Below, one piece after another: positions 1,708 through 15,703 of a stretch of 64,000 nucleotides of DNA; position 1 is the first letter of the stretch; each line of letters starts with the position of its first letter. The notes below the pieces were generated by a model that was given only the letters and a program-made list of their open reading frames with translations, was not told where the DNA came from and did no database searches. The position numbers were made by a program, and so were the translations under genes. The stretch is from Ignavibacteria bacterium (lineage in GTDB: Bacteria; Bacteroidota; Ignavibacteria; UBA10030; UBA6906). The stretch is from positions 79,298-143,297 of the forward strand of contig PSMW01000001.1 of assembly GCA_040290295.1 (NCBI GenBank), read 5' to 3'.

Positions 1708-2663
1708 CGTGCCATCCACATCTGCATGCTTCCTGCAAGCTCCATCAGGTACGCGACGCCGAGGTGAAGCATCACTCCGCCATAAATGGATTTGGTGTTG
1801 TAGGAAATGATGCCGAGGATCAATCCCCCCACAATCGAACCGGCCGCTTCGCCGATGGGCTTTTGAAAGTGAATGAACGCGTACACCACAACCATTGGAA
1901 GAATGGAAGCCGAGCCGAGAAACCGCGCAAATGCCATTACCATGAATCCTCGAAAGAGAAACTCGACGAAGACAAAATCCAGGCCGTAGGAGAACTGAAA
2001 TGCTGCCGCCCACGCCGTTCGTTTACCCGGCGCCAACGACGCTGGTAGGCCGAACGTGAAGCGCGGATACGCCTCTCGAAAGTCGGGACTGAACGACGCC
2101 GCAAACACAATCGGCACCAATAAGAGCAAGATGAACGCATAGGTTCTCAAGCGGATGTTCGACGTGCTGAAGCCATACAGATATGTCGCTCGCCGATCGT
2201 ACACGTACCAGTATGCGGCGATAGGTCCGAGCACTGCAACACCAGGAACGACATTGCTTGCAAAGCGCGCGATATAGGTATGAAGCTCCGCGGGTACGAA
2301 GAGGAGCATGTCGGGATGCGACCGAACGAAAGCGAAAGGTACGTTGTGCAAGACCACATACACGGCAAGCAGAATGAACCAGAAATGGAACAAGAACCAG
2401 AAATGCGCTTCTCGCATCACCTCCCATCGTCGATGCACCGCGCTCCAGAGCGCCAGCGTGATGAAATACGGAACGGCATAGAAGAAATAATAAAATGCTG
2501 CTTCTTCCCACGGCGAGGTCAGTCGGCGCAGGACAGTTGTCTCGAAGTCGAAGCCGTAATTGATGCCGAAGCTGATCATCAGCACCAATGCTGTGCCGCC
2601 GAAGAGGCGGGCATTCCACTTGTGGCGGAGGTACTCTCGAATATACTGAACGATGACTTTCAC
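1704..2663 (-). CDS. CPBP family intramembrane glutamic endopeptidase (CAAX protease / Abi-like)
   Basis: Multi-TM protein with a VEFLFRGF (EExxxR-type) motif, an FIHFQKP histidine motif and a C-terminal GGVMLHLGVAY motif. Translationally coupled (ATGA) to the downstream GT-C gene. Confidence 0.7.
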   Translation of the reverse strand: MKVIVQYIREYLRHKWNARLFGGTALVLMISFGINYGFDFETTVLRRLTSPWEEAAFYYFFYAVPYFITLALWSAVHRRWEVMREAHFWFLFHFWFILLAVYVVLHNVPFAFVRSHPDMLLFVPAELHTYIARFASNVVPGVAVLGPIAAYWYVYDRRATYLYGFSTSNIRLRTYAFILLLLVPIVFAASFSPDFREAYPRFTFGLPASLAPGKRTAWAAAFQFSYGLDFVFVEFLFRGFMVMAFARFLGSASILPMVVVYAFIHFQKPIGEAAGSIVGGLILGIISYNTKSIYGGVMLHLGVAYLMELAGSMQMWMAR

Positions 2664-2690: not shown

Positions 2691-4331
2691 TTATCCTTCT
2701 TTCTTCGCGGGCATCGGGAGCTGCTGAATGACTTCGAGAAGCTTGTCGCCATCGATAGGTTTTTGCAGGAACGCGTCAATACCGGCAGCGAGCACTTCCT
2801 TGGTCGAATAGAACTGCGAGTAAGCAGTGACCATGAGGATCGGGAAGCCGGGCCAATCCTTTTTGACGCGTCGAGAGAATTCGATGCCGTTCATCTTCGG
2901 CATGTCGAGATCGACGATCGCGAGGTCTGGTGCTTCCACGTGCATCATCTCAAGAGCATGCTCGCCGTTGCCTGCTTCGCACACACGATAGCCGTGCGAG
3001 AGAAGCAGATGTTTCAACGCCTCGCGGAAGTCCTCGTTGTCGTCGATGAGGAGAATGGTTGGACCTTTTTTCATATCGCTTACCATATCGATTGGGTTGA
3101 ACATATTCCCCCCATGAGTTGATGATGAGTGATGAAGTGCTTCGCGCGTTGCTTCGATGGCAAAAGTCATCTCCTGTGCGGTGTTGTAGAAATGGGGCGC
3201 GTAGCGGAGTTTTCCTTCACGCACAGCGACGGTGATGTTCTGTTTGAGCAATGTTCGAAACACGAGTTTTGCGTTTGTTGATGGTGGCAACTCGATGGTC
3301 AGGATGCCAGCTCTCTCGTGGTCAGCGTCGGGAGTGATCGCTTGTACTCCCGGGATCTGACTCAACCCATCCAGCAACATGCGCGTCAGGTTCAAGATCC
3401 TTCGTTCGATTTGCGTGGCGCCGAACGAGAGCAAAACCTCCAGTGCCGCCGCCAAGCCGTACAACCCCGGAATGTTGCGCGTACCGCCTTCAAACATGCG
3501 TGCCGATGATGCGAGCGGTTGATTGGAGTTAAAGAAATCCCACGGATCTTCCACGGCAAGCCAACCCACAAAGGCAGGCTGTATGCGTTGCTGCAACTCT
3601 TCGGTGATGTATAGCCAGCCCGTTCCCTGAGGGGCCAGTTGCCACTTTTGGCATCCCGAAGCCAGCGCGTCAATCTTCATTCGTTGCACGTCCAGCTCGA
3701 CGGCACCTGCCGCTTGAATACCGTCCACAACAAAGAGGATTCCTCTACTCCGACAGAGCGACCCGATCGCCTCGAGGTCGGCGCGGTAGCCGGTAAGGAA
3801 TTGCACCGCACTGAGCGCGACCAGTCGTGTGCGAGGAGTGATCGCTTTGGCGATACGCTCGGCTGTTGGGTGTCCGTCGCGTTGAGGAATCACATCGATT
3901 TCCACTCCATGGCTTTTCAGTGCGCGGTAGGGCCAAACGTTCGCCGGAAATTCCGCCTCGTGCAACACAATGCGATCGCCACTCTTCCACTTCAAGCCAA
4001 CAGCGACCACGTTGATCGGGTCGGAAGTGTTTGTCATCAGCGCGATGCGGTCGGGAGATTCAGCATGGATCAGGCGAGCAACAAGGCGGCGACACTCTTC
4101 GATCTTCGCAACATCCTTCGTCATGGAGGTTTCGATCATTCCGGCTGAACGTTCGTGGAGATGTGCCGTGATCGCTTCGACGACGCGCGTGCACATAGGC
4201 GCAGTGCCGGCGTGATTGAGATACACTTTCCCTTGCTGCGTGTGGGGAAAGAGTATTCGCGCCGACTGCAAGGCATCGGCGTTGACCGTCTCTTCCGGTT
4301 GAAGAGTTTCTGAAATCATCCTCGTACGCAA
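2691..4331 (-). CDS. Class-V aminotransferase-fold PLP enzyme (cysteine desulfurase / selenocysteine lyase-like) fused to a C-terminal response-regulator receiver domain
   Basis: A single 546-aa ORF with no internal stop. N-terminal ~410 aa: VYLNHAGTAP, LVALSAVQFLTGY, FVVDGIQAAG, PLP-lysine context ASGCQKWQLAPQGTGWLY. C-terminal ~120 aa: REC motifs ILLIDDNED, LAIVDLDMPKMNG, ILMVTAY, FLQKP. Confidence 0.75.
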   Translation of the reverse strand: MRTRMISETLQPEETVNADALQSARILFPHTQQGKVYLNHAGTAPMCTRVVEAITAHLHERSAGMIETSMTKDVAKIEECRRLVARLIHAESPDRIALMTNTSDPINVVAVGLKWKSGDRIVLHEAEFPANVWPYRALKSHGVEIDVIPQRDGHPTAERIAKAITPRTRLVALSAVQFLTGYRADLEAIGSLCRSRGILFVVDGIQAAGAVELDVQRMKIDALASGCQKWQLAPQGTGWLYITEELQQRIQPAFVGWLAVEDPWDFFNSNQPLASSARMFEGGTRNIPGLYGLAAALEVLLSFGATQIERRILNLTRMLLDGLSQIPGVQAITPDADHERAGILTIELPPSTNAKLVFRTLLKQNITVAVREGKLRYAPHFYNTAQEMTFAIEATREALHHSSSTHGGNMFNPIDMVSDMKKGPTILLIDDNEDFREALKHLLLSHGYRVCEAGNGEHALEMMHVEAPDLAIVDLDMPKMNGIEFSRRVKKDWPGFPILMVTAYSQFYSTKEVLAAGIDAFLQKPIDGDKLLEVIQQLPMPAKKEG

Positions 4332-4532
4332 AATAACGTATGCACTGCGGATAAAAGCGGTAGCATCGACTTCAAGACAACATGTGGTCTAAAAATAGAA
4401 ACTTGGAGCAGGAGATGCAAAAGGAAAATCGTATGTGTGCATATCCTCTAATCACCTGTGCGCTATTAGCCATCAAAGATAACGGCCATTCTCACGATCG
4501 GGCATACTCGTACACTTTCAACGCAATCAGCT

Positions 4533-4548
4533 TGGCACCCTGCTTGAC
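4533..4548 (+). promoter_or_regulatory. Variant sigma-54-type -24/-12 element (TGGCAC-N5-TTGA) upstream of the glycosylation megagene
   Basis: Sequence cTTGGCACCCTGCTTGAc lies in the 259-bp intergenic region, 43-88 nt upstream of the candidate starts. The -24 GG is perfect; the -12 reads GA instead of GC. Confidence 0.3.
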
Positions 4549-4590
4549 CTTTCGCCTGTACTGTAGATACGGCAGGCACAACAGCGAACA

Positions 4591-7500
4591 GTGCCGTATC
4601 GACAGAACAGTACATCACACGAGAGCGTGATTCTGATGAAGCAGTGTGGATATACCGCAACCTCTCATTTCCAAATATCGAAGCGTGAAGAGTTGGGTGC
4701 CCTTTTCAATCGGCTTGGTTTGCTGGGCAACGGCGCAGAAATCGGAGTTCAGGCGGGAGCCTTTTCTGCGGTACAGAGACGAAGCTGGCAGGGTAAGCGA
4801 CTGCATTTGATCGGCCGTTGGCGCCACGCGGAGGACTATCATGATATTGCCAACGTTTCCCAACCCCAACAGGATAGACTCTACCGATCCGTGATCGAGA
4901 AGTTTTCCGGTGATCGCATCGTCACGATCTATCGGTTAGACTCGGTGGAAGCCGCTTCGCAATTCCCCGATAATTTTTTCGATTGGATCTATCTCGATGC
5001 CGACCACTCGTACAACGAGTGTACAGCGGACCTGCATGCATGGTATCCAAAACTCAGAGCGGGCGGCGTTTTCGCGGGACACGCTTTTGTGGATGGTGTC
5101 GTTGAGGCGGGGGAGTTCGGAGTCAAATCGGGGGTCGAGGAATTCATCAAACCCTTACACATTGAGCTGTTCTTCACTCAAGAAAGCGAGTGGAAGTCGT
5201 GGTACTTCGTGAAGCCCGACCATCAGGGATGTGCCTTCGTAACTCTTGCCGCGGGAGAGTTCTTTCAACGAACGTTCGACCGTTACTTTCGCGAGAGCCT
5301 CGAGCAGTACGCAGAAAGAGTTGGAGTTCCACGCTACATTTTTCGTGAACCGTGGGATCGCACACCCTCCGCACTCCGGCGAAGCCTTGCTTGGCAGAAG
5401 CTCCTGATCTTCGAACTCCCGGATCTTGCGCGCTTCGATCGGTTGTGTTGGCTCGACGCCGATATCATGACAACGAGGTCGTCGGAGAACATCTTCGAAT
5501 GCGTTGCCGGAAATCAATGGGGTGCTGTGAGTGAGCTGAGGAATTTCACTTCTCCCGATGAATTGGGGCGAGTGTACGAGAGCCGGGGCGTTCCTGTTCT
5601 CTCGGATATGATCAATACCGGTGTGCTGGTTGTGCACCGCCAAACTCATGCACACGCGATGCATGCACTCTATGGTGAGGCGATGGAGCGGCGAGGTCAA
5701 CCGGAACAGCGAGATGGAGGGTGGTTCGAGCAGCCGTATCTGTCTCACGTACTCATGTCCGAGTTCACAGGAACCGTGTTACCAGTACGCTTCAATCGGC
5801 TTGTTGTGCGCCATCTCCTCCGACTACCGAGGCCACAGGACGTCTATACCATGTTGTCGCGTTCATCGGTCTTTCTCCACTGGCCCGGCCGCCCAGCGGA
5901 GAAGTTTTCGGAGGATGAACTAGAAAGCGTGATGTCGATCGTCCAATCCACGGAAGTCGAACGAGTGAGCATTCCAGCCAAGACGTCGTCGCTTCATGCT
6001 CTACAAACCACCACCAGTACACTACGGGGGCACACCATGAGTCATGCACGAATCACGTTTGCCATTCTCACCCATAATGCACTCGAATACACGAAACGGT
6101 GTTTGCAAAGCATCGAACGCACTACGCCCGCTCCTTACCGCATCGTCGTGGTGGACAACGCGTCGACTGATGGGACGCCTCAATGGTTAGCCGAATGCGG
6201 CATCGAAAATCTCCACTATGTGTTAATCGAGAAGAACCTTGGCGTTCCGGGTGGAAGGAACAGACTGATTTGTGAGATCATGCCGAGTCTTGAACCGAGT
6301 GAATTTGTCCTCTTTCTCGACAATGATGTCGAGTTGCTCGATGGATGGTATCTGCCCTTCCTTCACTTGTTCCAGAAAGAGCCGACGGTGGGGATTGCAG
6401 GTGTGGTAGGGCATTCGATTATTGTAGGCAAGGATAGACGTGACCTTCTCCCTGCTCCTACCCAACAAGCCGAGGAGGTCGATCTTGTTTCTGGGTTCTT
6501 CATGCTTATGCGTTCTGACGCGATCCGCGCTGTCGGATTTTTTGATGAAACTCTCGGACGGTTCTGGCACGAGGATGATGACTACTGCATTCGTGCGAAA
6601 GGGGCAGGCTTTAGGGTGTTTGCGGTTCCTACAAAAGCCGTGTTCCACCACGCGCATAAGTCGGGCGTAGCATTACCGAGTATTGCCAAGGGTGGATCGC
6701 CGGAGAACCAAAAGTATCTCGCAAAGAAGTGGCGATGTTTGGGTTTAGTGAACGCACATGGGAAGATTGTGCAGCGCCGTGGAGTTGCTGCCAAGAGAGC
6801 GAAGCAGGTCATCATTGGCGTCGATGCTCGGACGTTCCAGTATCAAGAGTCGGTCTCACGCGGGATCGGGCATTATTCATTCTCTCATCTTCTGCACGTT
6901 GCCCGACTTCGTCCTGATTGGCAGTTCGTACTCTACCGGGAATCCGACAACATACCGTCGAGCATGGAACCGCTCCTTGCACTGCCGAATGTTACCACCA
7001 AGAGTGTGGATGAGTACACGAGCAATGCGATCGATCTTTTCCATGTGTGCGATCCGTTGAATGCACTGTTCGGATTCGATTCACCGTTTCGTCTCTTCCC
7101 CGCAGAGCGCATGACCGTGACCTTCTATGACCTGACCCCGCTGCGTCTCTATTTTCCTGTGATGCCGGAAAGCTTTCAGACGGCGTATCGTCAACGCCTG
7201 CGACAACTCCAGCAGAGTGGAGCTACGCTTCTGGCGATTTCTCAATACACCAGAGATGATCTGATCAGGGAGGGCATCGTCCCTGCTGATCGGGTAGAAG
7301 TCGTTATGGCCGGCTTGAACCAGTCGGTTGGTCCGAAGAGCTTCCCGTCGGATTCTGTTCGTGAGCTTAAGTCTCGGCTGAGCATTTCGAAGCCCTTCTT
7401 CCTCCACGTGGGTGCTCTCGATCCGCATAAGAATTTTGAAACAACGTTGAAAGCTTTTGTCACGTGCTCGAAGCGAATGCCATGTCAACTTGTTGTTGTA

Positions 7501-10164
7501 GGACGGCTCGAGCATCACCTGAAAGCGTATGCTGATCAAGTGAAATCGAAGAAGATCAAGAATGTCATCTTCACCGGATTTCTTTCCAGAGAAGAACTCG
7601 AAGTGTTGTACGCCGAGGCGCGTGGGCTTCTGTTCATGTCATTGTACGAAGGTTTCGGTTTCCCTGTCCTCGAAGCAATGGCTCGGGGTTGTCCGGTGAT
7701 TGCATCGAATTGCACCTCGATACCGGAAGTGGCAGGCGACGCTGCTATCTTACTGCCGCCAACCGCCGTTGAAGAAATTGCGCAGGCAATGCACCGACTG
7801 CTGACAGGCAGCAGCTTGCGAGAGGAATGTCGGGCAAAAGGGGTGGAGCGCGCGCAACTCTTTACGTGGGACGCGACGGCAGAACGCACACTGCGTGTGT
7901 GGGAGCGGCTGTTAGAGATTCCGCACACGGTATCACCGACACACTCCGCAGAGAGTGAGGGGAGAAAATCGGGCGATGAGAGACAATCTTCTTCCAACTC
8001 CCATATCCAGCCTCAGTGCCATACGCTCAGTTTGCAGGATCAATCCGATGCAGCGAAGGAGCCGCGAGAATCGAACAATGACGCAGAAGCGCTACCACCG
8101 TTGGTTTGGGAAGGTCCAATCTTCAGTCACGGTTCGTTAGCGCACGTAAACCGAAACATTGCTCGACAGCTTGCCAAGCAAGGCGTTCCACTGTCTATCT
8201 GTGTGAAGAGGGAAACCGGCGGCAATCTTTCTTCGGATATTCGGTTCGCGGCAATACGGTCACTCGTCAACAAGAACGTCGATGGGCAAGCGATCCACAT
8301 TCGCCATCAGTGGCCCCCGGATCTATCGCCGCCGACGAGTGGCTATCTGGTGATGATCCAGCCGTGGGAATTCGTTAGTCTGCCCAAGGAATGGATTCGC
8401 TTCGTCTGCACGCACGTCGATGAAGTTTGGACATACACGCAGTACGTGAGAAACGTGTACATCGCCAGTGGTGTCTCCCCGGAGCGTGTCCACGTTGTTC
8501 CGCTCGGCGTCGATCCTTTTGTGTACCATCCCGACGGGGGAATCTTCCCTCTCAGAACGAAGAAAACATTTCGCTTTCTTTTTGTCGGCGGCACAATTTA
8601 CCGAAAAGGGATCGACCTGCTCCTCGACGCTTACGTGGCTGCGTTTGACCGCGACGACGATGTTTGTCTTGTCGTGAAAGATTTCGGCGGCACCTCCTTC
8701 TACAAAGGTCAAACGATGCAGGAAAAAATTCGATCCATCCAGCGGGATCGTCGTGCACCCGAGGTCGAGTATATCGATCACGTGTTGACCGAGGATGAGA
8801 TGGCTGCATTGTATCGTACCTGTAATGTTTTGGTACAGCCATATCGTGGTGAAGGCTTTGGGCTTCCGATACTGGAAGCAATGGCGTGCGGTGTTCCAGC
8901 CATTGTGACCAAAGGAGGGGCATGTTTGGATTTTTGTCATGGAGAAAACAGCGTCCTGCTTCCCGCTGTGATGAAGCGATTGCCGGAAAAAAAGGTGGGT
9001 GAGTTTGAAACGCTCGATTTCCCGTGGATATTTGAGGTTGAAGGTGAAGTGCTGAAGAGTGCACTTCGCGATGCGTATGACCATCCAGAAGCGCTGAAAG
9101 CCAAAGGTGAGCGTGCTCAGCGAGAGGTGCGTGAGCGATGGACGTGGGAACATACTGCGGCATGCGTCCGACAGCGCGTAGCCTCGCTGGTCAAGAAGCC
9201 GACATTTCGTACTTCCACGGCCCTTGCCGTTGAGCAGCTCGAGGTTTCCGTGCGGGTTGCGGGCCGCCTCTATGCCGAGGGACGCTATGAGGTAGCGTTA
9301 TTTCTCAGTACGATTGCACAGGAGCTCATCGCTTCACGATTACCGAGTGAGGATCAGCCGAGGCTTCAGGCAGAAGTCGAGAACTTTCGTGGTGATTGCT
9401 TTTTTCGCATCAACGCGTTCGATGATGCGAAACAATGCTATGAGGCAGCCCTGCAAGCGAATCCCACGTCGTCTCATGCCTGCGCCGGCATCGCCGATGT
9501 CTTGTTCGTATGCGGGTTCGACACACAAGCGAAAACCTTGTATGAATGGGCGGTCAAGTACGACCCTCAGAACAAGCGGGCAGTGCAAGGTTTGGCGAAG
9601 GTCAACGCAGAGCTTCATCTCCCGCCGGACGATAACTCCTTGCTGATGGATGGCTCGATACAGAGCAGCTTGGAATACCTGCAGGTTAAAGCACTGGAAG
9701 AGTTGCAGGCAGGCGACCTGCAAGCCGCCATTCAAACTGCCGATGCGATCGAATCACTCCTTGCGTCAAGTCCGCCGCCAGAGCAAGTGCAGGAGCTTCG
9801 AGCAGCAACACTCAACTTGAAAGGTACGTGCTATCTCCGGCTTTCTGAAATCTCGAATGCGAAGCGTTGTTTCGAAGCGGCGCTGCAAGCCAATCCACGG
9901 TCATCAGCGGCATGTGCAGGATTGGGAGAAGTGTTCTGGGCATTGGGCACAGTGGAACATGCGAAAACCATGTTCGAGCGGGCGCTGAAGAACGATCCTC
10001 ACAATGAATCGGCACATACCGGACTCCGGAAGGCGAACGATGCATTAGGTTTGCCGCCGGACCACCGCACGCTTTCTGTAGCTGAAGACTCGAATCTGGT
10101 GCATGATGAAGATGGAAACGAATCCAACAGCTCACAAACGGTAACCGTCAATGCCTCACAGTAA
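4591..10164 (+). CDS. Multidomain glycan-assembly protein: class-I SAM methyltransferase + GT8-like + GT2 + GT4 + GT4 glycosyltransferase domains + C-terminal TPR repeats (1857 aa)
   Basis: Uninterrupted ORF. Motifs in order: GAEIGVQAGAFS and IYLDADHSY (MT); WLDADIM and INTGVLVV (GT8); ITFAILTHN, VVVDNASTDGT, FLDNDVEL, WHEDDDYC (GT2); EGFGFPVLEAMARGCPVIAS (GT4-1); GEGFGLPILEAMACGVPAIVT (GT4-2); repeated TPR-like A-L-x-x-N/D-P units at the end. The start may instead be the ATG at 4636 (MKQCGY). Confidence 0.8.
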   Translation: MPYRQNSTSHESVILMKQCGYTATSHFQISKREELGALFNRLGLLGNGAEIGVQAGAFSAVQRRSWQGKRLHLIGRWRHAEDYHDIANVSQPQQDRLYRSVIEKFSGDRIVTIYRLDSVEAASQFPDNFFDWIYLDADHSYNECTADLHAWYPKLRAGGVFAGHAFVDGVVEAGEFGVKSGVEEFIKPLHIELFFTQESEWKSWYFVKPDHQGCAFVTLAAGEFFQRTFDRYFRESLEQYAERVGVPRYIFREPWDRTPSALRRSLAWQKLLIFELPDLARFDRLCWLDADIMTTRSSENIFECVAGNQWGAVSELRNFTSPDELGRVYESRGVPVLSDMINTGVLVVHRQTHAHAMHALYGEAMERRGQPEQRDGGWFEQPYLSHVLMSEFTGTVLPVRFNRLVVRHLLRLPRPQDVYTMLSRSSVFLHWPGRPAEKFSEDELESVMSIVQSTEVERVSIPAKTSSLHALQTTTSTLRGHTMSHARITFAILTHNALEYTKRCLQSIERTTPAPYRIVVVDNASTDGTPQWLAECGIENLHYVLIEKNLGVPGGRNRLICEIMPSLEPSEFVLFLDNDVELLDGWYLPFLHLFQKEPTVGIAGVVGHSIIVGKDRRDLLPAPTQQAEEVDLVSGFFMLMRSDAIRAVGFFDETLGRFWHEDDDYCIRAKGAGFRVFAVPTKAVFHHAHKSGVALPSIAKGGSPENQKYLAKKWRCLGLVNAHGKIVQRRGVAAKRAKQVIIGVDARTFQYQESVSRGIGHYSFSHLLHVARLRPDWQFVLYRESDNIPSSMEPLLALPNVTTKSVDEYTSNAIDLFHVCDPLNALFGFDSPFRLFPAERMTVTFYDLTPLRLYFPVMPESFQTAYRQRLRQLQQSGATLLAISQYTRDDLIREGIVPADRVEVVMAGLNQSVGPKSFPSDSVRELKSRLSISKPFFLHVGALDPHKNFETTLKAFVTCSKRMPCQLVVVGRLEHHLKAYADQVKSKKIKNVIFTGFLSREELEVLYAEARGLLFMSLYEGFGFPVLEAMARGCPVIASNCTSIPEVAGDAAILLPPTAVEEIAQAMHRLLTGSSLREECRAKGVERAQLFTWDATAERTLRVWERLLEIPHTVSPTHSAESEGRKSGDERQSSSNSHIQPQCHTLSLQDQSDAAKEPRESNNDAEALPPLVWEGPIFSHGSLAHVNRNIARQLAKQGVPLSICVKRETGGNLSSDIRFAAIRSLVNKNVDGQAIHIRHQWPPDLSPPTSGYLVMIQPWEFVSLPKEWIRFVCTHVDEVWTYTQYVRNVYIASGVSPERVHVVPLGVDPFVYHPDGGIFPLRTKKTFRFLFVGGTIYRKGIDLLLDAYVAAFDRDDDVCLVVKDFGGTSFYKGQTMQEKIRSIQRDRRAPEVEYIDHVLTEDEMAALYRTCNVLVQPYRGEGFGLPILEAMACGVPAIVTKGGACLDFCHGENSVLLPAVMKRLPEKKVGEFETLDFPWIFEVEGEVLKSALRDAYDHPEALKAKGERAQREVRERWTWEHTAACVRQRVASLVKKPTFRTSTALAVEQLEVSVRVAGRLYAEGRYEVALFLSTIAQELIASRLPSEDQPRLQAEVENFRGDCFFRINAFDDAKQCYEAALQANPTSSHACAGIADVLFVCGFDTQAKTLYEWAVKYDPQNKRAVQGLAKVNAELHLPPDDNSLLMDGSIQSSLEYLQVKALEELQAGDLQAAIQTADAIESLLASSPPPEQVQELRAATLNLKGTCYLRLSEISNAKRCFEAALQANPRSSAACAGLGEVFWALGTVEHAKTMFERALKNDPHNESAHTGLRKANDALGLPPDHRTLSVAEDSNLVHDEDGNESNSSQTVTVNASQ

Positions 10165-11713
10165 TTGCCACCGCCGCCCGACGCTCTCGGTCAGCATGAT
10201 TGTGAAGAACGAGGAGGCGTTTCTCGACGATTGCTTGCAGAGCGTGCAACCAGTTGCGGATGAGATCGTCATCGTCGATACAGGTTCGACCGATCGTACG
10301 AAGGAGATCGCTCGAGGTTGGGGAACAAAGGTCTTCGACTTCGCATGGCAGGGTGACTTTGCAGCCGCGCGGAACTTCTCTCTGCAACAGTGCACAGGTG
10401 ATTGGGTGCTGTATATCGATGCTGATGAACGACTCACGGCAAAGTCGGCGCAAGCTTTGCCTCGACTGCTTTCACGCAACGAGGCAGATGCGTACACCGT
10501 CATCATCGACAGTCCTCAAACGATGCGGCAGGGAAGATTCAAGCAGCAGAATGCGTATCCACGTCTCTTTCGGCGGTTCGAGGGGATTGCATTCGAGGGG
10601 CGCGTGCACGAGCAAGTGTTGCCCTCACTCCAACGGCAGCGGCTCAAGGTTCTTCCTTCGTCTGTGACGATTCTTCATCTCGGCTACGATCGCGGGTATG
10701 ATGTTGTAAAGAAAAAAGCAGAGCGCAATCTCGAACTCTTGCAACGTCAGCTCGCCGTGAATCCCGGCGATGCTTATACGCAGTTCCAAGTCGGGAACAC
10801 GTTGGTTGTACTTCAGCGGTACGATGAAGCCGAGTCCATACTCGATCGCGCTCTACGCAACCCTCATCTCGATCGCAGCAATCGAGCATCGTGTTACAAC
10901 CTGATGGCTGAAGTAGCCGTGCGACGAGGTGATCCTCATCGCGCTGTGCAGATGTGTATGAGGTCGCTCGAAGCGGTACCGATTCAGATGATGGCGCGAT
11001 GGTTTCTCGCTCTTCTCTACTTCGACCTTCAAGAGTTTGATCAGGCGATACGGGTCCTTGAGGAAGTAGCGAAACTTCTGGATGAACCTTCGACGGTCCG
11101 ATTGAATCACATTGCTTCCGATCTCGATCTGAGGCGCTACCGTCTGGAGCTGCAACGTGCGATGACGTATGCAGCGGCGGGGAAAATGGCTGAAGCTGCC
11201 GATCGGTATCTTGCTGCAATAGAGGAGGAGCCGAGCAGTCGCGAAGCGGTTGAAGGTCTTCTTCGGTGTGTGGATCGAATAGGCGAGAGTGTGGTGGGTC
11301 TGCGTCTGCTTGAACGAGCGGCGCTACAATGCCCGAAGGAAAAACACATTCACATTGCGTTGGCTCGGCGGTATCACGAGCGAAAAGAGTTCGATGCCGC
11401 GTTCCACCACGTTGACTGCGCGATGGCATTAGAACCGGAGGATGGCGACACGTACGCGCTCGCGATCAAATGGAAGATGGAGTTGGGAGCCACCGAGGAA
11501 GCGTGGCGTTACATCGAACACGCCGAAGCGTGCGGTGTGCAAGCGTTTGAATTCCACAAGGCGTCGCTTCAGCTTTCCTTGTCACGAGGTGATCTCCGAT
11601 CCGCCTTCAAGCATTTAGAGTTGATGGCACAGACAAGCCAAGCCGACCTCACACCCCTGCGGAACCGGCTGGCTGCTCTCGCAGCCAAAATCTCATCCCA
11701 ACCTTCTGCGTGA
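10151..11713 (+). CDS. Family-2 glycosyltransferase with C-terminal TPR repeats
   Basis: N-terminus LSVSMIVKNEEAFLDDCLQSVQPVADEIVIVDTGSTDRT...YIDADE is typical of GT2. The C-terminal ~330 aa are TPR-like helical repeats. Overlaps the previous gene by 14 nt. Confidence 0.8.
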   Translation: MPHSNCHRRPTLSVSMIVKNEEAFLDDCLQSVQPVADEIVIVDTGSTDRTKEIARGWGTKVFDFAWQGDFAAARNFSLQQCTGDWVLYIDADERLTAKSAQALPRLLSRNEADAYTVIIDSPQTMRQGRFKQQNAYPRLFRRFEGIAFEGRVHEQVLPSLQRQRLKVLPSSVTILHLGYDRGYDVVKKKAERNLELLQRQLAVNPGDAYTQFQVGNTLVVLQRYDEAESILDRALRNPHLDRSNRASCYNLMAEVAVRRGDPHRAVQMCMRSLEAVPIQMMARWFLALLYFDLQEFDQAIRVLEEVAKLLDEPSTVRLNHIASDLDLRRYRLELQRAMTYAAAGKMAEAADRYLAAIEEEPSSREAVEGLLRCVDRIGESVVGLRLLERAALQCPKEKHIHIALARRYHERKEFDAAFHHVDCAMALEPEDGDTYALAIKWKMELGATEEAWRYIEHAEACGVQAFEFHKASLQLSLSRGDLRSAFKHLELMAQTSQADLTPLRNRLAALAAKISSQPSA

Positions 11714-11827
11714 ACTGACTGCACACATCCTCCACGCGAATCACAATGGAGTTGAGGACTTTTGTAAGACTTGCACTTCTGCTGTCACCTAAGTCCTTGA
11801 ACCACAAATAATTAAGGCGTCTCCCAC

Positions 11828-11854
11828 TAAAGAAACTCCATGCGTCTCCGATAA
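11828..11854 (+). promoter_or_regulatory. Sigma-28 (FliA) class-III promoter of the flagellin operon
   Basis: TAAAGAAA-N11-TCCGATAA compared with the consensus TAAAGTTT-N11-GCCGATAA. It lies 90 nt upstream of the flagellin ATG in an AT-rich intergenic region. Confidence 0.65.
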
Positions 11855-11892
11855 TGAGTGTAGAGCAACAAACTGCTCAACAACAAAACACT

Positions 11893-11908
11893 CGGGCATG
11901 GAAGCCCG
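11893..11908 (+). promoter_or_regulatory. Predicted CsrA binding site 1: GGA presented in a hairpin loop of the flagellin 5' leader
   Basis: CGGGC-ATGGAA-GCCCG: a perfect 5-bp stem with the GGA motif in a 6-nt loop, 36 nt upstream of the flagellin ATG. Confidence 0.5.
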
Positions 11909-11930
11909 GATCATCCATATACACAACATA

Positions 11931-11940
11931 CAAGGAGGTA
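11931..11940 (+). promoter_or_regulatory. Flagellin Shine-Dalgarno (AAGGAGG), also a predicted CsrA binding site 2
   Basis: CAAGGAGGTA ends 4 nt before the ATG at 11944. The GGA-containing SD mirrors the two-site arrangement of the B. subtilis hag leader. Confidence 0.5.
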
Positions 11941-11943
11941 GTT

Positions 11944-12768
11944 ATGCCATTAACCGGTGGTGCTCGTATCAACACGAATGTTGCTGCGATGAACGCGTTG
12001 AATGCGTTGAACGCAATCAATCGCGACCTGAGCATGCATCAGGAGCGCCTGGCAACAGGCCGAAGGATTAACACGGCAGCGGACGATCCGTCGGGCTACG
12101 TCATTTCCAAGAAGATGGAGGGAGGTATTCGTTCGTTGAATTCCGCGTTGGACAACTTGGGTGACGCACAATCCACCTACGGTGTTGCTGAGGGTGCATA
12201 CCAGAAGATTGCTGACCTCTTGGTGCAAATCAAGGAGAAGCAAACGCGCTTCATCAACGGTGCGTTCGGTGCAGACGAGAAGCAGGCGATCGCGACGGAA
12301 ATCTCGGGGCTGGCTTCGGAAATCGACGACATTGTCTCGACGACGAAGTTCAACGGGGTGCAGTTGCTGAGCGGCACGTACTCGCAGAACTTCCAGGTCG
12401 GTGAAGGCAGCACCGAAGTGTTTACGGTTGCCTTCAGTTCGAGCGTTTCGTCGGCGGCGTTGCTTGGCGTCGCAGCGGGCAGCATTACCACTGCCAATGT
12501 CACCACGCTCACCGTGGACGTAGGTCTTGGCACAGTCAACACGGCGATCGGTGCAATCGGTGCGTCGTTGAATCGTTTGTCTGTAAAAGAGGCAAACCTC
12601 AACACGGCCATCACGAACACCGAAGCAGCGAAGAGCCGCATCTTCGACGCCGACATTGCCAAGGAGCAGATCAAGGCTGCGAAGCTGCAGATCCTCCAGC
12701 AAACGTCCACGTCGATGCTGGTGCAGGCGAATGCATCGCCGCAGGTGTTCCTGTCACTGTTCCGATAA
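11944..12768 (+). CDS. fliC: Flagellin (short, 274 aa)
   Basis: MPLTGGARINTNVAAMNALNALN...RLATGRRINTAADDPSG N-terminus and ...SRIFDADIAKEQIKAAKLQILQQTSTSMLVQANASPQVFLSLFR C-terminus. The strong RBS favours ATG 11944 over the ORF-track start at 11854. Confidence 0.95.
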   Translation: MPLTGGARINTNVAAMNALNALNAINRDLSMHQERLATGRRINTAADDPSGYVISKKMEGGIRSLNSALDNLGDAQSTYGVAEGAYQKIADLLVQIKEKQTRFINGAFGADEKQAIATEISGLASEIDDIVSTTKFNGVQLLSGTYSQNFQVGEGSTEVFTVAFSSSVSSAALLGVAAGSITTANVTTLTVDVGLGTVNTAIGAIGASLNRLSVKEANLNTAITNTEAAKSRIFDADIAKEQIKAAKLQILQQTSTSMLVQANASPQVFLSLFR

Positions 12769-12799
12769 CCTCGAGTACACAGTGGCTTGACGAACAACA

Positions 12800-12826
12800 G
12801 GAGCGGCGCCCCGTAAGGCGCCCTCC
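12800..12826 (+). terminator. GC-rich hairpin after the flagellin gene (possible intrinsic terminator/attenuator)
   Basis: GGAG(C)GGCGCC-CCGTAA-GGCGCCCTCC forms a 10-bp stem with one bulge, followed by the AT-rich AGTATTATCT. There is no clean U-tract. Confidence 0.45.
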
Positions 12827-12851
12827 AGTATTATCTACCGAAAGGGAGTGA

Positions 12852-13235
12852 ATGACAAACGGAGGTTTATCCCCGATGCAGACAGCAGCACATACACCGG
12901 CACCGCCGGTCGAACGATTGTTCTCGGCGCCGAAAGTTCATTCCGCGCTGACAACGTACCGTAAGGAACAGGTTCTCAATCTCTCGCCCGTCGAGGTGAT
13001 TGATAAACTGTATGGAGTCGCGATTCAAGCAATCAAGAAAGACGACAAAGGATTGGCGTACCGAGCAATGAACGAGCTTATCGCGGCACTGAACTTCGAG
13101 TATCAAGAGGTTGCGTTGAGTTTGTACCGTCTGTACCAGTATGCGAAGTACTGTCTGCGCCAAGGCAAACATGATGACGCCGTCGAGGTTCTGGAAGAGC
13201 TTCGTTCGGCTTGGAAAGAAGCATTCAAGCTCTGA
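12852..13235 (+). CDS. fliS: Flagellin-specific export chaperone FliS
   Basis: YRKEQVLNLSPVEVIDKLYGVAIQAIKK matches the FliS core (Y..n.V.tasP.eLi.mLY). Position next to fliC/fliD. An alternative start ATG at 12876 has a better-spaced GGAGG. Confidence 0.75.
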   Translation: MTNGGLSPMQTAAHTPAPPVERLFSAPKVHSALTTYRKEQVLNLSPVEVIDKLYGVAIQAIKKDDKGLAYRAMNELIAALNFEYQEVALSLYRLYQYAKYCLRQGKHDDAVEVLEELRSAWKEAFKL

Positions 13236-13260
13236 CACCGATATGTAACGGGAAGAGGCA

Positions 13261-14700
13261 ATGCCTGAAATGTCGAACATATCGAGCCAGATCGATTCGC
13301 TGGTCCAGCAGTATCGACTCAGCATCGGTAAGCCGGCACGGCGACTCGAGGACCGGAAGACGTCGTTGAACGCGCGACTGTCGGTTCTGGCCGAACTCAA
13401 ATCCAAGCTCACGGCGTTGCATGCGCTTGCGAAGGATTTGAAAGCGACCGGTGCGCTGTCCAAGTTCAGTGCTTTTTCGGTGGACGGTTCGCTCCCCTCG
13501 ATCGTCACTGCGACAGCGACGTCAACCGCAGCGGTGGGTATGCATACGCTATTGGTCACGCAACTCGCCAAAGCTGATACCGTGATCTCCTCTCAGCTCA
13601 GCAGTGCGGCAACGACGATTTCCGCTACTGAAGGAGCTGGAACCAAGACGGTGCGTCTAACGGTGAACGGTGTCTCGGTAGATGTATCGTTCGAGATCCA
13701 AGACGGTGATACCAACAGCCAGGTGCTGTCGAGGCTGGCGTCGGCGGTCAACGCTGCGTCGGGTTCGAAAGTATCGGCGTCGGTCATCAACGATACAACG
13801 GGTACGAGCAGGCTGGTGCTGACGAGCAAGGAGAGTGGTTCGACGAACGCCATTACGCTCGAGGATGTGACCGGTTCGGTGTTCAACACCATCGGTCTCG
13901 GTGCCGATGTGGTCGCGAACCGAACTGCCACAAGTGGGACCGCCGGAGGATACTTGTACTCCTCGGTCGATTTGCTGAATGCAAAATTCAAGCTCGACGG
14001 TGTGGATATCGTCCGAGGCACGAATTCCGTGAGTGATGTGCTGACGGGCGTGACGTTGGAATTGAAAGCCGTCCAGAACCCAAACGATACACCGGTGTCG
14101 TTGAAGATTGGGGTGGATAAAGCGAAAGTGAAGACCGCGGTCGAAGATTTTCTCAAAGTGTACAACGAAGCGTTGTCGTACTTGCAAGCGAAGACCTCGG
14201 TAAACCCGGACAACAAGACGCGCGACATTCTCGCCAGTGATCAAGTCTTCAAAGGCTTGCGGATCAGTCTACGCGCCGTGATGAGTAGTGCGGTGAGCAG
14301 CGTTCTCAGCGGCAATCCAGCGGTGCTGGCGGACATCGGCATCAAAGCGAATGCGGATGGCAGGCTGAGTTTGAGCGATGCCGCGAAGTTCGAGGATGCG
14401 CTGGCGAGCGATGTGCGGAAGGTTGCCGATCTTTTCAACTCCACCGACGGTATCGCTGTCCGCTTGAGCAACGTGTTGGAAGGATTCACCACCTTCGGCG
14501 GGCAGATCGATATCGCACGCAATGGTACGCAGGATCAACTCTCGAACGTTAGCGCAGCACTCAAGCGCGCCAATGCAGAGATCGATCGGAAGGTGCTGGC
14601 GTTTCGGACACAGTTCGAGGCGCTGCAAAACGCATTGAACAGGATTTCGTTACAATCACAAGCAATTTCACGACTATCACAACAACTGTACGGATTCTAA
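13261..14700 (+). CDS. fliD: Flagellar filament cap protein FliD (HAP2)
   Basis: N-terminal SSQIDSLVQQY...RLEDRKTSLNARLSVLAELKSKL and C-terminal FRTQFEALQNALNRISLQSQAISRL heptad regions. Size 479 aa. Confidence 0.85.
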   Translation: MPEMSNISSQIDSLVQQYRLSIGKPARRLEDRKTSLNARLSVLAELKSKLTALHALAKDLKATGALSKFSAFSVDGSLPSIVTATATSTAAVGMHTLLVTQLAKADTVISSQLSSAATTISATEGAGTKTVRLTVNGVSVDVSFEIQDGDTNSQVLSRLASAVNAASGSKVSASVINDTTGTSRLVLTSKESGSTNAITLEDVTGSVFNTIGLGADVVANRTATSGTAGGYLYSSVDLLNAKFKLDGVDIVRGTNSVSDVLTGVTLELKAVQNPNDTPVSLKIGVDKAKVKTAVEDFLKVYNEALSYLQAKTSVNPDNKTRDILASDQVFKGLRISLRAVMSSAVSSVLSGNPAVLADIGIKANADGRLSLSDAAKFEDALASDVRKVADLFNSTDGIAVRLSNVLEGFTTFGGQIDIARNGTQDQLSNVSAALKRANAEIDRKVLAFRTQFEALQNALNRISLQSQAISRLSQQLYGF

Positions 14701-14720
14701 AGAGGTAGGGAGGAAAGACA

Positions 14721-15077
14721 ATGTCCATAACAATCGAACCATCGTTCACACCGGTACCGGTGACTTCTCCCGAAGAGGTGTTCTTGGACCCGACGCGTCG
14801 TTCGAAGCAGCACGATGCTGCCGTCCGAGAGGCGGAACATCACAAGAAGCTCTCGCGTGAGGAGGTGGAAAAAATCGTGCGCGAAGTAAACGACCAACTG
14901 CAGGCGATGCACACGGAGTTGAACTTTTCGGTGGACAAAGAAACCGACAAACTGGTATTGCGCATCATCAACAGCAAGACGCACGAGGTGATTCGACAGA
15001 TACCGGCGGAAGAAGCGTTGCGGATTGCCGCGCGCATCAGCAAGCTGCTCGGTCTCCTGATCGACGGGAACGCCTGA
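14721..15077 (+). CDS. flaG: FlaG family flagellar protein
   Basis: LNFSVDKETDKLVLRIINSKTHEVIRQIPAEEALRIAARISKLLGLLID is the characteristic FlaG C-terminal block. GGGAGG RBS. Confidence 0.85.
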   Translation: MSITIEPSFTPVPVTSPEEVFLDPTRRSKQHDAAVREAEHHKKLSREEVEKIVREVNDQLQAMHTELNFSVDKETDKLVLRIINSKTHEVIRQIPAEEALRIAARISKLLGLLIDGNA

Positions 15078-15436: not shown

Positions 15437-15703
15437 ATGGCAATAGATAAAATTGGGTTTGGGCGGCCGCTTGTGCCTTCCTCCGAGAACCCGAAAAACC
15501 GAGAATCACACACCGGGTCGCCTGATGCAAAGGATACGGTGCAGCTTTCCGGCGAAGCGCTGAAGCTCTTTGCTGCGGCGAGAGCGCAACGTCTTGCCGA
15601 AATCCAAGAACGAGTGCGGACAGGGTTCTACGATCGTCCAGAAATAACGGAAAAAGTGGTGGAAGGCTTGCTGCGCGACATCAAGCGCCCACCGACGGCA
15701 TGA
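15437..15703 (+). CDS. flgM: Anti-sigma-28 factor FlgM
   Basis: 88 aa. DTVQLSGEA...RLAEIQERVRTGFYDRPEITEKVVEGLL matches the FlgM C-terminal sigma-28-binding region (D.V.lS...v..ik..I..G.Y.v). Confidence 0.75.
   Translation: MAIDKIGFGRPLVPSSENPKNRESHTGSPDAKDTVQLSGEALKLFAAARAQRLAEIQERVRTGFYDRPEITEKVVEGLLRDIKRPPTA

What the first reader, a model, noticed from the sequence alone, without database searches (positions are those of the whole stretch)
4591..11713. Flagellin-adjacent glyco-modification island built around an 1857-aa five-enzyme megaprotein (MT-GT8-GT2-GT4-GT4-TPR) and a GT2-TPR partner
Seen in the sequence: one uninterrupted 5.57-kb ORF strings together, in order:
- a class-I SAM methyltransferase (about nt 4640-5230; GAEIGVQAGAFS, IYLDADHSY)
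- a GT8-like domain (5230-5900; WLDADIM, INTGVLVV)
- a GT2 domain that still opens with its own Met (6037-6660; ITFAILTHN, VVVDNASTDGT, FLDNDVEL, WHEDDDYC)
- two GT4/GT-B domains (6800-7920 with EGFGFPVLEAMARGCPVIAS; 8095-9190 with GEGFGLPILEAMACGVPAIVT), separated by a Ser-rich linker
- a TPR tail (9230-10080)

This ORF overlaps by 14 nt a second gene encoding GT2+TPR. The pair ends 230 bp before the only flagellin gene in the window. That flagellin has a short, Ser/Thr-rich variable region (SSSVSS, TTANVTTLT).

Established knowledge: flagellin O-glycosylation genes are typically clustered beside flagellin genes. Dedicated flagellin glycosyltransferases carrying TPR substrate-recognition modules are known (Caulobacter FlmG; Listeria GmaR, as I recall its architecture).

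Inference: this looks like a self-contained flagellin (or flagellar surface) glycan assembly-and-methylation line in which normally separate enzymes are fused into one polypeptide. I know of no described system with this architecture. The window contains no pse/leg/neu-type nucleotide-sugar genes, so the glycan would have to be built from common sugar nucleotides.
Basis: partly seen in the sequence, partly recalled or inferred. Interest (0 to 1): 0.75.

Follow-up and report, generated by a model that had tools for sequence, protein, structure and literature searches.

The report
Fused giant flagellin-glycosylation enzyme pair
Just upstream of the flagellin gene of an uncultured Ignavibacteria bacterium lie two coupled genes, a relative of the Listeria flagellin sugar-transferase GmaR and a 1,850-residue protein fusing one methyltransferase, four glycosyltransferases and a TPR tail, that most likely build a methylated sugar chain on flagellin; the kind of system is known, but the five-enzyme fusion is unusual.

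Summary
ORF 4591-10164 is real and has the stated domain order: Methyltransf_24, a GT8/GT34-like retaining GT-A (shown by fold, not by Pfam threshold), GT2, two GT4 domains and TPR. It overlaps the 520-aa GT2+TPR gene by 14 nt. That gene ends 230 nt before a 274-aa flagellin with its own sigma-28-type promoter, at the edge of a ~52-kb flagellar cluster.

The fusion is not an assembly artefact:
- Two independent assemblies carry the same collinear protein (82% and ~49-64% identity).
- All catalytic motifs are conserved in all three.
- Domains have dN/dS 0.09-0.18; linkers have 0.54-1.08.

The partner's GT domain is 38% identical to the solved GT domain of Listeria GmaR, the flagellin O-GlcNAc transferase.

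In 80 species-level loci holding a partner relative:
- 42 have flagellin within the flank.
- 26 have it immediately downstream on the same strand.
- Of the 65 with at least 3 kb of upstream sequence, 15 have a 900-2844-aa multi-GT protein directly upstream, with a variable domain set.

Best reading: the partner primes flagellin Ser/Thr, and the megaprotein extends and O-methylates the glycan. This parallels C. difficile type B GT1/GT2/GT3. No glycan has been demonstrated.

Verdict: a new variant of a known kind, of moderate interest.

The parts
4591..10164 (+). Megaprotein gene (1857 aa from GTG 4591; 1842 aa from ATG 4636 as in the NCBI record). Soluble, with no transmembrane helix.
4636..5205 (+). 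Class I SAM methyltransferase domain (Methyltransf_24), aa 16-205. Motifs EIGVQAG and YLDADHSY. Its fold is closest to cation-dependent O-methyltransferases.
   Evidence: Pfam 6e-11. AF2 model pLDDT 88. Foldseek top hits are COMT/CCoAOMT-type O-MTs and M. hassiacum MeT1. 50-83% identical in 10 aligned relatives; phmmer found it in 16 further giant proteins.
5227..5925 (+). GT8/GT34-like retaining GT-A domain, aa 213-445. DxD at aa 289-291.
6046..6780 (+). GT2 (inverting GT-A) domain, aa 486-730. Motifs VVDNAS, LDNDVE, HEDDDY.
   Evidence: Pfam 2.6e-16; motifs conserved in 3 orthologues
6793..7920 (+). First GT4 (GT-B) domain, aa 735-1110. EX7E motif at aa 1020.
7921..8085 (+). Ser/Gln-rich flexible linker, aa 1111-1165. 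dN/dS ~1. An extra ~350-aa GT4 module is inserted here in the L002 orthologue.
8086..9240 (+). Second GT4 (GT-B) domain, aa 1166-1550. EX7E motif at aa 1421.
9241..10035 (+). C-terminal TPR region, aa 1551-1815. Probable docking module for flagellin or for the partner.
   Evidence: Pfam TPR_1/2/16/19. A C-terminal TPR also occurs in the giants of L006, L010 and L017.
10151..10720 (+). Partner protein, N-terminal GmaR/SunS-type GT2 domain, aa 1-190. DADE motif at aa 90-93.
   Evidence: PDB GmaR GT domain 22ao E=1.9e-49, SunS 7.6e-35; 38% identity to GmaR
10721..11713 (+). Partner protein, TPR/helical-repeat region, aa 191-520, plus stop codon.
11828..11853 (+). Sigma-28 (FliA)-type promoter, TAAA-N15-TCCGATAA. 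The only such match in the window.
11944..12768 (+). Flagellin, 274 aa. Short D0/D1-type, with a Ser/Thr-rich central segment (28% S+T over aa 141-215). Presumed acceptor.
12852..15077 (+). FliS-like, FliD and FlaG genes. They show that the pair sits at the head of the filament operon region.

Best explanation
This is a two-gene cytoplasmic flagellin O-glycosylation module.

Proposed steps:
1. The 520-aa GT2+TPR protein is a GmaR/SunS-family protein glycosyltransferase. It recognises flagellin through its TPR region and puts the first sugar on Ser/Thr of the short central segment. By analogy with GmaR and C. difficile GT1, that sugar is a HexNAc.
2. The translationally coupled megaprotein docks through its own C-terminal TPR.
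3. It uses its four glycosyltransferase domains (one retaining GT-A, one inverting GT2, two GT4) to extend that sugar into a short oligosaccharide from housekeeping sugar nucleotides.
4. Its O-methyltransferase-like domain methylates, and perhaps caps, the glycan.
5. Flagellin is then exported through the flagellar type III system.

Shown here: the domain identities, the intact motifs, selection on every domain, GmaR homology, conserved synteny with flagellin, and the soluble nature of both proteins.

Inferred: the acceptor, the order of action, the sugars, and that the methyl group goes onto a sugar.
For: - Domain architecture.
- All DxD, ED and EX7E motifs and the SAM motifs are conserved in three orthologues.
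- dN/dS is 0.09-0.18 in each domain and 0.54-1.08 in the linkers.
- The partner matches the GmaR GT domain at E=1.9e-49 and 38% identity, and SunS at 7.6e-35. GmaR is a GT+TPR flagellin O-GlcNAc transferase (PMC9638930).
- Of 80 species-level loci with a partner relative, 42 have flagellin in the flank, 31 within 1 kb, and 26 directly downstream on the same strand, across at least 8 phyla.
- Of the 65 of those loci with at least 3 kb of upstream sequence, 15 have a multi-GT ORF of 900 aa or more directly upstream.
- Megaprotein homologues lie in flagellar loci: L002, L003, L004 and L085.
- The pair overlaps by 14 nt here and 4 nt in L002.
- Neither protein has a transmembrane helix.
- No Wzx/Wzy, ABC exporter, priming phosphotransferase or sugar-nucleotide genes were found among the ORFs scanned.
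- Precedent: C. difficile GT1 primes with GlcNAc, and a GT+MT fusion adds and methylates rhamnose (PMC5207246).
- Precedent: TPR serves as the flagellin-binding module in FlmG (bioRxiv 2022.03.25.485807) and in Maf-1 (as cited in PMC13317340).
Against: - There are no biochemical or mass data. The organism is an uncultured MAG.
- 38 of the 80 partner-relative loci show no flagellin in the fetched flank. Some contigs end too early, but many Bacillota and Actinomycetota members probably have other acceptors, as SunS does.
- The P0007 homologue sits between che genes and motAB, but no flagellin lies within 10 kb.
- GT4 and GT2 domains are generic, and on their own would fit polysaccharide synthesis equally well.
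- Flagellin has its own sigma-28 promoter, so it is not obligatorily co-transcribed with the pair.
- A PMT_2-like membrane protein lies 2.5 kb upstream on the other strand.
Confidence: 0.72

Rival explanations
1. Same flagellin-glycosylation system, but with the roles reversed or shared. The megaprotein itself primes flagellin, through its C-terminal TPR next to a GT-B domain (a FlmG-like pairing in reverse order). The GmaR-like partner then adds a later or separate sugar, or modifies different sites.
For: - Both proteins carry TPR modules.
- FlmG combines TPR with a GT-B domain.
- In L003 and L004 several TPR-bearing GT proteins lie between the partner and flagellin.
Against: - The GmaR-like partner is the conserved element and the one nearest flagellin, whereas the giants vary in composition.
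- Its characterised homologues GmaR and SunS act directly on polypeptide acceptors.
Confidence: 0.13
2. The megaprotein builds a glycan that is not on flagellin, such as an exopolysaccharide, an LPS-like or other lipid-linked polymer, or a glycan on another flagellar or surface protein. On this reading it merely neighbours the flagellar cluster, in the manner of the multi-domain O-antigen polymerases with methyl capping (WbdA/WbdD type; from my own knowledge).
For: - GT2, GT4 and methyltransferase fusions are typical of polysaccharide synthesis.
- NCBIfam's best (sub-threshold) matches are EPS- and PEP-CTERM-type GT4 enzymes.
- The P0007 locus has no flagellin within 10 kb.
- A PMT_2-like gene lies upstream.
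Against: - No exporter, flippase, polymerase, priming transferase or sugar-nucleotide genes were found among the ORFs scanned with Pfam.
- Homologues are repeatedly placed between flagellar genes and directly upstream of the GmaR-like gene and flagellin.
- The pair is translationally coupled to a GmaR homologue.
- A TPR tail is present.
Confidence: 0.1
3. The single 5.6-kb ORF is an assembly or frameshift artefact, or a decaying fusion in which some domains are dead.
For: The source is a metagenome-assembled genome, and read-level support could not be checked here.
Against: - The same collinear fusion occurs in two independent assemblies from other samples: L001 (1872 aa) and L002 (2185 aa).
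- Every domain is under purifying selection (ω 0.09-0.18), and all catalytic motifs are conserved.
Confidence: 0.02
4. The pair belongs to a conflict or anti-phage system. This is suggested by the Pfam 'GT4-conflict' hit.
For: PF20706 GT4-conflict, E=1.2e-22 on the GT4 domains.
Against: - The hit overlaps stronger generic Glycos_transf_1 hits from what I take to be a related family.
- PADLOC gives no match for either protein.
- The genomic context is flagellar.
Confidence: 0.02

Closest known systems
Listeria monocytogenes GmaR (flagellin beta-O-GlcNAc transferase and MogR antirepressor)
   Same: - The partner has the same N-terminal GT2 domain: 38% identity, and E=1.9e-49 against the solved domain with a profile.
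- The DADE motif is shared.
- The GT domain is followed directly by TPR repeats.
- The gene lies in the flagellar cluster next to a short (~280-aa) flagellin.

   Different: - The partner is 520 aa rather than 637 aa.
- Its C-terminal part shows only generic TPR similarity, with no detectable match to the GmaR linker and antirepressor domains.
- No thermosensing or MogR role is expected.
- GmaR adds a single GlcNAc and has no elongating megaprotein beside it.
Clostridioides difficile type B flagellin modification locus (GT1, GT2, GT3; PMC5207246)
   Same: - A priming GT adds HexNAc to flagellin.
- A second enzyme fuses a GT with a methyltransferase, and extends the glycan and methylates the added sugars.
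- The genes lie beside fliC.

   Different: - There the enzymes are three separate proteins. The fusion has two activities, and the methyltransferase is PF08241.
- Here five catalytic domains plus TPR are in one chain, and the methyltransferase is Methyltransf_24.
- Homology of the partner to CD0240/GT1 was not tested.
Caulobacter FlmG and the Maf flagellin glycosyltransferases
   Same: A TPR module is used to recognise flagellin, joined to a GT domain. Glycosylation is cytoplasmic and precedes export.
   Different: - FlmG has an N-terminal TPR and one GT-B domain, and transfers Pse or Leg.
- Maf proteins carry the MAF_flag10 GT-A domain.
- The window has neither a Maf domain nor nonulosonic-acid genes.
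Pseudomonas syringae Fgt1/Fgt2 glycosylation island
   Same: Glycosyltransferase genes lie directly upstream of fliC and are required for flagellin glycosylation (PMC3402453). They are large multi-domain GTs of ~1000-1200 aa (size from my own recollection, not checked).
   Different: - No sequence comparison was made.
- Those are two separate enzymes making a Rha-Rha-viosamine trisaccharide, with dedicated sugar-nucleotide genes elsewhere.
- I know of no TPR or fused methyltransferase in them.
SunS / ThuS peptide S-glycosyltransferases
   Same: GT2 domain plus a helical, TPR-like peptide-recognition region. E=7.6e-35 to SunS over the GT domain and the first repeats.
   Different: - They act on Cys of small bacteriocin precursors.
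- Their genes sit in glycocin clusters, not flagellar clusters.

Membership tests
GmaR/SunS-type GT2+TPR protein glycosyltransferases (partner, 10151-11713) | N-terminal GT-A domain homologous to the GmaR/SunS catalytic domain | tested here: met
   Profile against PDB: GmaR 22ao E=1.9e-49, SunS 7msp 7.6e-35. BLASTP: 38% identity over 197 aa, 7e-35.
GmaR/SunS-type GT2+TPR protein glycosyltransferases (partner, 10151-11713) | Conserved DxD(E) metal/nucleotide-sugar motif | tested here: met
   D90-A91-D92-E93 is invariant in alignment A1 and aligns to the GmaR DADE.
GmaR/SunS-type GT2+TPR protein glycosyltransferases (partner, 10151-11713) | TPR/helical-repeat region immediately C-terminal to the GT domain | tested here: met
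   Pfam TPR families over aa 194-372; TPR matches in the PDB.
GmaR proper (bifunctional antirepressor) | C-terminal linker and antirepressor domains that bind MogR | tested here: not met
   The protein is 117 aa shorter than GmaR. The C-terminal 331 aa give only generic TPR hits, and no GmaR chain is among the 60 listed of 76 hits at E<=1. The GmaR domain layout is from PMC9638930.
GmaR/SunS-type GT2+TPR protein glycosyltransferases (partner, 10151-11713) | Gene linked to flagellin | tested here: met
   230 nt upstream of flagellin here. In 26 of 80 relative loci it is directly upstream on the same strand, and in 42 of 80 flagellin lies within the flank.
GmaR/SunS-type GT2+TPR protein glycosyltransferases (partner, 10151-11713) | Transfers a sugar (GlcNAc for GmaR) to flagellin Ser/Thr | not testable with these tools
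   Needs MS or an enzyme assay.
CAZy GT8 (megaprotein aa 213-445) | Sequence match to the GT8 profile above threshold | tested here: not met
   PF01501 E=0.025, 14.6 bits against a cut-off of 24.3. 11 of its 32 aligned relatives do match.
Retaining GT-A fold, GT8/GT34/GT6-like (megaprotein aa 213-445) | GT-A fold with a DxD motif, structurally closest to retaining GT-A enzymes | tested here: met
   AF2 model pLDDT 87.5. Foldseek: A64R 2e-9, glycogenin, GTA/GTB, XXT1. The DxD is conserved.
GT4 / Glycos_transf_1 (two domains) | Pfam PF00534 above threshold, and an EX7E motif | tested here: met
   168 bits over two stretches. EGFGFPVLE at aa 1020 and EGFGLPILE at aa 1421.
GT2 (megaprotein aa 486-730) | PF00535 above threshold, with DxD and ED motifs | tested here: met
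   60.4 bits. DND at aa 577 and HEDDD at aa 660, both conserved.
Cation-dependent class I O-methyltransferases (megaprotein aa 16-205) | Rossmann SAM-binding fold with a glycine-rich motif I and an acidic metal-binding motif | tested here: met
   Methyltransf_24, 43.6 bits. The model's best matches are COMT/CCoAOMT-type O-MTs and the sugar O-MT MeT1. EIGVQAG and DADH are near-invariant across the aligned relatives. The substrate is not determined.
FlmG-type flagellin glycosyltransferases | N-terminal TPR plus a single C-terminal GT-B domain, with Pse/Leg donor genes | tested here: not met
   The TPR is C-terminal. There are five catalytic domains. No nonulosonic-acid genes were found among the ORFs scanned.
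Maf flagellin glycosyltransferases | MAF_flag10 domain | tested here: not met
   No such Pfam hit in either protein.
Lipid-linked polysaccharide (O-antigen/EPS) assembly loci | Co-located priming transferase and exporter or polymerase (Wzx/Wzy or ABC) | tested here: not met
   None among the ORFs scanned with Pfam. ORFs below the size cut-offs used (150 aa beyond 20 kb, 80 aa before), and several listed ORFs, were not scanned.

The most novel reading that the evidence does not exclude
The window is one example of an unrecognised, widespread class of 'mega flagellin-glycan synthases'. In Ignavibacteria, Melioribacteraceae and Kapabacteria-type genomes, and in some other phyla, a conserved GmaR-like primer is paired with a 1000-2800-aa polypeptide. 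The GT, MT and radical-SAM modules of that polypeptide are shuffled, inserted and deleted at flexible linkers (for example the extra GT4 in L002). It would then act as a protein-tethered, assembly-line-like glycan synthase held on flagellin by its TPR tail. Module swapping would rapidly diversify the flagellar surface glycan between lineages.
Probability: 0.3. Interest if true: 0.7.

Novelty: new variant of a known kind. Interest (0 to 1): 0.5.

Why it matters
Flagellin glycosylation has been worked out mainly in pathogens, and mostly for nonulosonic acids (Maf, FlmG) or single sugars (GmaR).

This locus extends that picture in three ways:
- GmaR-type GT2+TPR enzymes sit next to flagellin in many environmental phyla.
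- In one large lineage, the elongation and tailoring steps have been condensed into single giant polypeptides of variable module content.
- The megaprotein is annotated only as 'hypothetical protein'.

If confirmed, it would give:
- a compact two-gene cassette for building a defined methylated oligosaccharide on a protein in the cytoplasm, which is useful for glyco-engineering;
- a natural system for studying how fused glycosyltransferases hand a growing glycan from one active site to the next;
- a marker (a GmaR-like GT next to flagellin) for predicting glycosylated flagella in uncultured bacteria.

Tried and rejected
- **PDB search, aa 205-480.** The sequence search gave only spurious hemocyanin hits. 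The fold had to be obtained by modelling.
- **PDB search, N-terminal 720 aa.** Only weak GT2 hits, and nothing for the MT domain.
- **Promoter and terminator scan, 4200-13300.** No excess over shuffles. A sigma-28 pattern search was informative instead.
- **L001, the closest orthologue.** The contig ends inside the partner gene, so flagellin adjacency could not be checked there.
- **P0023 (MT plus GT8-like, 487 aa).** It sits on a 2-kb contig, so there is no context.
- **Literature search** for Ignavibacteria + flagellin + glycosyltransferase returned nothing, and no listed paper held the phrase 'multidomain glycosyltransferase'. The library is incomplete, so this is weak evidence of novelty.
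- **Defence-system reading.** Rejected after the PADLOC search.
- **Artefactual-fusion reading.** Rejected after comparing orthologues and computing dN/dS.
- **Filing the partner as GmaR proper.** Rejected, because the antirepressor part is not detectable.

Full report
**1. What is in the sequence**

The window carries an uninterrupted ORF at 4591-10164 on the + strand. It is 1857 aa from GTG 4591. An identical protein is in NCBI as 'MAG: hypothetical protein C4326_00385 [Ignavibacteria bacterium]'. There it is called from the ATG at 4636 (1842 aa). I could not settle which start is used.

A second ORF at 10151-11713 (520 aa) overlaps it by 14 nt.

The flagellin ORF is listed from 11854, but its real start is almost certainly ATG 11944. 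AAGGAGG lies 6 nt upstream, and the orthologue in L002 begins 'MALSGGARINTN' against 'MPLTGGARINTN' here.

A sigma-28-type promoter, TAAA-N15-TCCGATAA, lies at 11828-11853. It is the only such match in the window. A FliA-like sigma factor is encoded at 47890-48654.

Downstream of flagellin, the ORFs scanned are flagellar, chemotaxis or regulatory through to 64 kb:
- FliS-like, FliD, FlaG
- regulators
- a rod protein, FliF, FliG, FliH, FliI, FliK, FlgD, FlgE, FliL, FliM, FliP, FliR, FlhB, FlhA
- FlhF- and FlhG-like proteins (assigned by position from SRP54-GTPase and ParA/MinD-type hits), and FliA
- FlgI, FlgK, an FlgL-like protein, MotA, MotB

Among the ORFs scanned there were no sugar-nucleotide, flippase, polymerase or exporter genes. 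The pair therefore sits at the 5' edge of a flagellar cluster of about 52 kb.

Upstream, on the other strand, lie an aminotransferase-V/receiver fusion and a weak PMT_2-like protein.

**2. Domain architecture of the megaprotein**

Pfam gives these hits above threshold:
- Methyltransf_24, aa 50-164
- Glycos_transf_2, aa 491-616 (Glyco_tranf_2_3, below its cut-off, extends it to aa 687)
- Glycos_transf_1, twice (best stretch aa 933-1084; the second GT4 lies at ~1320-1524)
- TPR, aa 1594-1626 and 1748-1810

It also has no PDB relative by sequence.

An exhaustive HMMER search found 400 relatives of this segment, mostly stand-alone proteins of 250-300 aa. Eleven of the 32 aligned relatives hit Pfam GT8. 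An AlphaFold model built on that alignment has pLDDT 87.5. Its best Foldseek matches are the PBCV-1 capsid-glycan transferase A64R, glycogenin (GT8), the blood-group GTA/GTB enzymes (GT6) and XXT1 (GT34). It is therefore a retaining GT-A of the GT8/GT34 type, with a DxD at aa 289-291.

The methyltransferase model (pLDDT 88) is closest to cation-dependent O-methyltransferases of the COMT/CCoAOMT type. These include the sugar O-methyltransferase MeT1 of Mycobacterium hassiacum.

Neither protein has a predicted membrane helix.

**3. The fusion is genuine and every module is maintained**

Two independent assemblies carry the same collinear protein:
- L001, from a Logan run: 1872 aa, 82% identity.
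- L002, from GCA_040960315.1: 2185 aa, 49% overall and 54-64% per domain.

The SAM motifs, three DxD motifs, the GT2 'EDDD' and both EX7E motifs are conserved in all three proteins.

Against L001, dN/dS is 0.09-0.18 in each of the six domains. It is 0.54 and 1.08 in the two linkers.

L002 has about 350 extra residues, an additional GT4 module, inserted exactly in the Ser-rich linker 2.

The MT domain recurs at 50-83% identity in 10 aligned relatives, and phmmer found it in 16 further giant proteins, at quite different positions along the chain. It is a free-standing ~290-aa protein in L014 and L015.

**4. The partner is a GmaR-family enzyme**

A profile of the partner and three orthologues hits the solved GT domain of Listeria GmaR at E=1.9e-49. 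It then hits SunS at 7.6e-35 and a ThuS-like enzyme. Pairwise identity to GmaR is 38% over 197 aa. The DADE motif is invariant.

GmaR is a 637-aa protein with GT, TPR, linker and antirepressor domains. It O-GlcNAcylates flagellin (PMC9638930).

The partner's C-terminal 331 aa show only generic TPR similarity. I therefore file it in the GmaR/SunS GT2+TPR family, but not as a GmaR-type antirepressor.

**5. Conserved linkage to flagellin**

A scan of one genome per species, using the partner profile, returned 80 loci:
- 42 contain a flagellin ORF in the fetched flank.
- 31 have it within 1 kb.
- 26 have it immediately downstream on the same strand.

These loci span Ignavibacteria, Melioribacteraceae and Kapabacteria-type genomes, Methylomirabilis, Desulfobacterota, Planctomycetota, Anaerolineae, Zixibacteria, Verrucomicrobiota and Fervidibacter.

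For a random gene, I would roughly estimate the chance of lying within 10 kb of flagellin at about 1%.

Of the 65 loci with at least 3 kb of upstream sequence, 15 have a same-strand ORF of 900 aa or more ending at the partner's start. Six of these are 1500 aa or more, and the largest is 2844 aa.

The domain sets of these giants differ:
- GT2 x2 + GT4 + TPR
- radical SAM + GT2 x4 + GT4
- other combinations

Megaprotein homologues found by sequence lie in the same places:
- L002: radical SAM, giant, GT2-TPR, flagellin.
- L003 and L004: giant, GT2-TPR, two more GT/MT giants, flagellin, and in L004 also FliS and FliD.
- L085: che genes, radical SAM, giant, three GTs, FlbD, MotAB.

None lies in an LPS- or EPS-type locus.

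In two Chthonomonadales genomes, a GT4b-like domain (40-44% identical) is fused to a GmaR-like GT2 domain in one protein. That ties the two gene products together functionally.

**6. Mechanism proposed**

This is inference resting on sections 2-5 and on published analogues.
1. The partner binds flagellin through its TPR and primes Ser/Thr in the short, Ser/Thr-rich central segment (28% S+T).
2. The translationally coupled megaprotein docks through its C-terminal TPR.
3. It adds up to four further sugars and O-methylates the product.
4. Donors are housekeeping sugar nucleotides, because none are encoded nearby.
5. All of this happens in the cytoplasm, before FliS binding and type III export.

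The closest worked-out analogue is C. difficile type B flagellin. There GT1 adds GlcNAc, a GT-methyltransferase fusion adds and methylates rhamnoses, and GT3 completes the glycan (PMC5207246).

TPR modules confer flagellin recognition in FlmG and in Maf-1 (as cited in PMC13317340). GT2+TPR is already used as a predictor of flagellin glycosyltransferases in Clostridium (PMC13317340).

**7. Rivals**

- A polysaccharide-synthesis role cannot be excluded from sequence alone. It is disfavoured by the missing export and priming genes, and by the repeated flagellar placement.
- Role reversal between the two TPR-bearing proteins is possible.
- An assembly artefact is essentially excluded.
- A defence-system role is essentially excluded.

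**8. Novelty and verdict**

The kind of system is known: a flagellin glycosylation island with a TPR-bearing primer, elongating GTs and a methyltransferase.

What I could not find described (the library is incomplete) is the condensation of one methyltransferase and four glycosyltransferases plus a TPR into a single chain. Nor could I find the wider family of 1000-2800-aa variable giants coupled to a GmaR-like gene in Ignavibacteria-type genomes.

I rate it a new variant of a known kind, with interest 0.5. No glycan has been demonstrated, and the decisive experiments are mass spectrometry and reconstitution.

Noticed in passing
window 11828-11853 (+); also 47890-48654: Sigma-28-type promoter TAAA-N15-TCCGATAA, 90 nt upstream of the real flagellin start. 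It is the only match in 64 kb. A FliA-like sigma factor gene lies in the same window.
   Followed up: partly
window 11854-11943: The mechanical flagellin ORF begins 90 nt (30 codons) too early. The real start, ATG 11944, has an AAGGAGG Shine-Dalgarno sequence and matches the orthologue N-termini.
   Followed up: yes
window 2691-4331 (-): Class V aminotransferase fused to a response-regulator receiver domain (546 aa). The same fusion is the upstream neighbour of the megaprotein orthologue in L001.
   Followed up: no
L006 (CALRIY020000023.1, filed as Synechococcus sp. UW140 MAG): It carries an Ignavibacteria-type 2844-aa multi-GT giant, a GT2-TPR gene and a flagellin. A flagellin in a Synechococcus bin suggests contamination of the bin.
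   Followed up: no
L002 1268-2389; L085 8813-9937; L014 2508-9968 (N-terminus): A radical SAM enzyme recurs directly upstream of the giants in relatives, or fused to them. It is absent from the window. It may tailor the sugar.
   Followed up: no
L063 7904-11743; L080 1303-4896 (Chthonomonadales): One ORF of 1200-1280 aa fuses a domain 40-44% identical to the megaprotein's second GT4 with a GmaR-like GT2 domain. No flagellin lies within the flank.
   Followed up: partly
L003 and L004: These are larger islands: formyltransferase, WbqC-like and pyruvyl-transferase genes, plus three or four giant GT/MT/TPR proteins before flagellin. That implies more elaborate glycans in those lineages.
   Followed up: no
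window 20252-21913; 22736-23578; 48995-49870: A 553-aa HEAT-repeat protein and two HDOD-domain proteins are embedded in the flagellar cluster.
   Followed up: no
window 12852-15077: The gene order is flagellin, FliS-like (127 aa, partial FliS profile), FliD, FlaG. It is followed by two ORFs with no Pfam match (15080-15424 and 15437-15703).
   Followed up: no
window 421-2013 (-): A 530-aa ORF with a borderline PMT_2 (GT-C mannosyltransferase-like) match, 26.3 bits against a cut-off of 26.1. It lies 2.5 kb upstream of the pair on the opposite strand.
   Followed up: no
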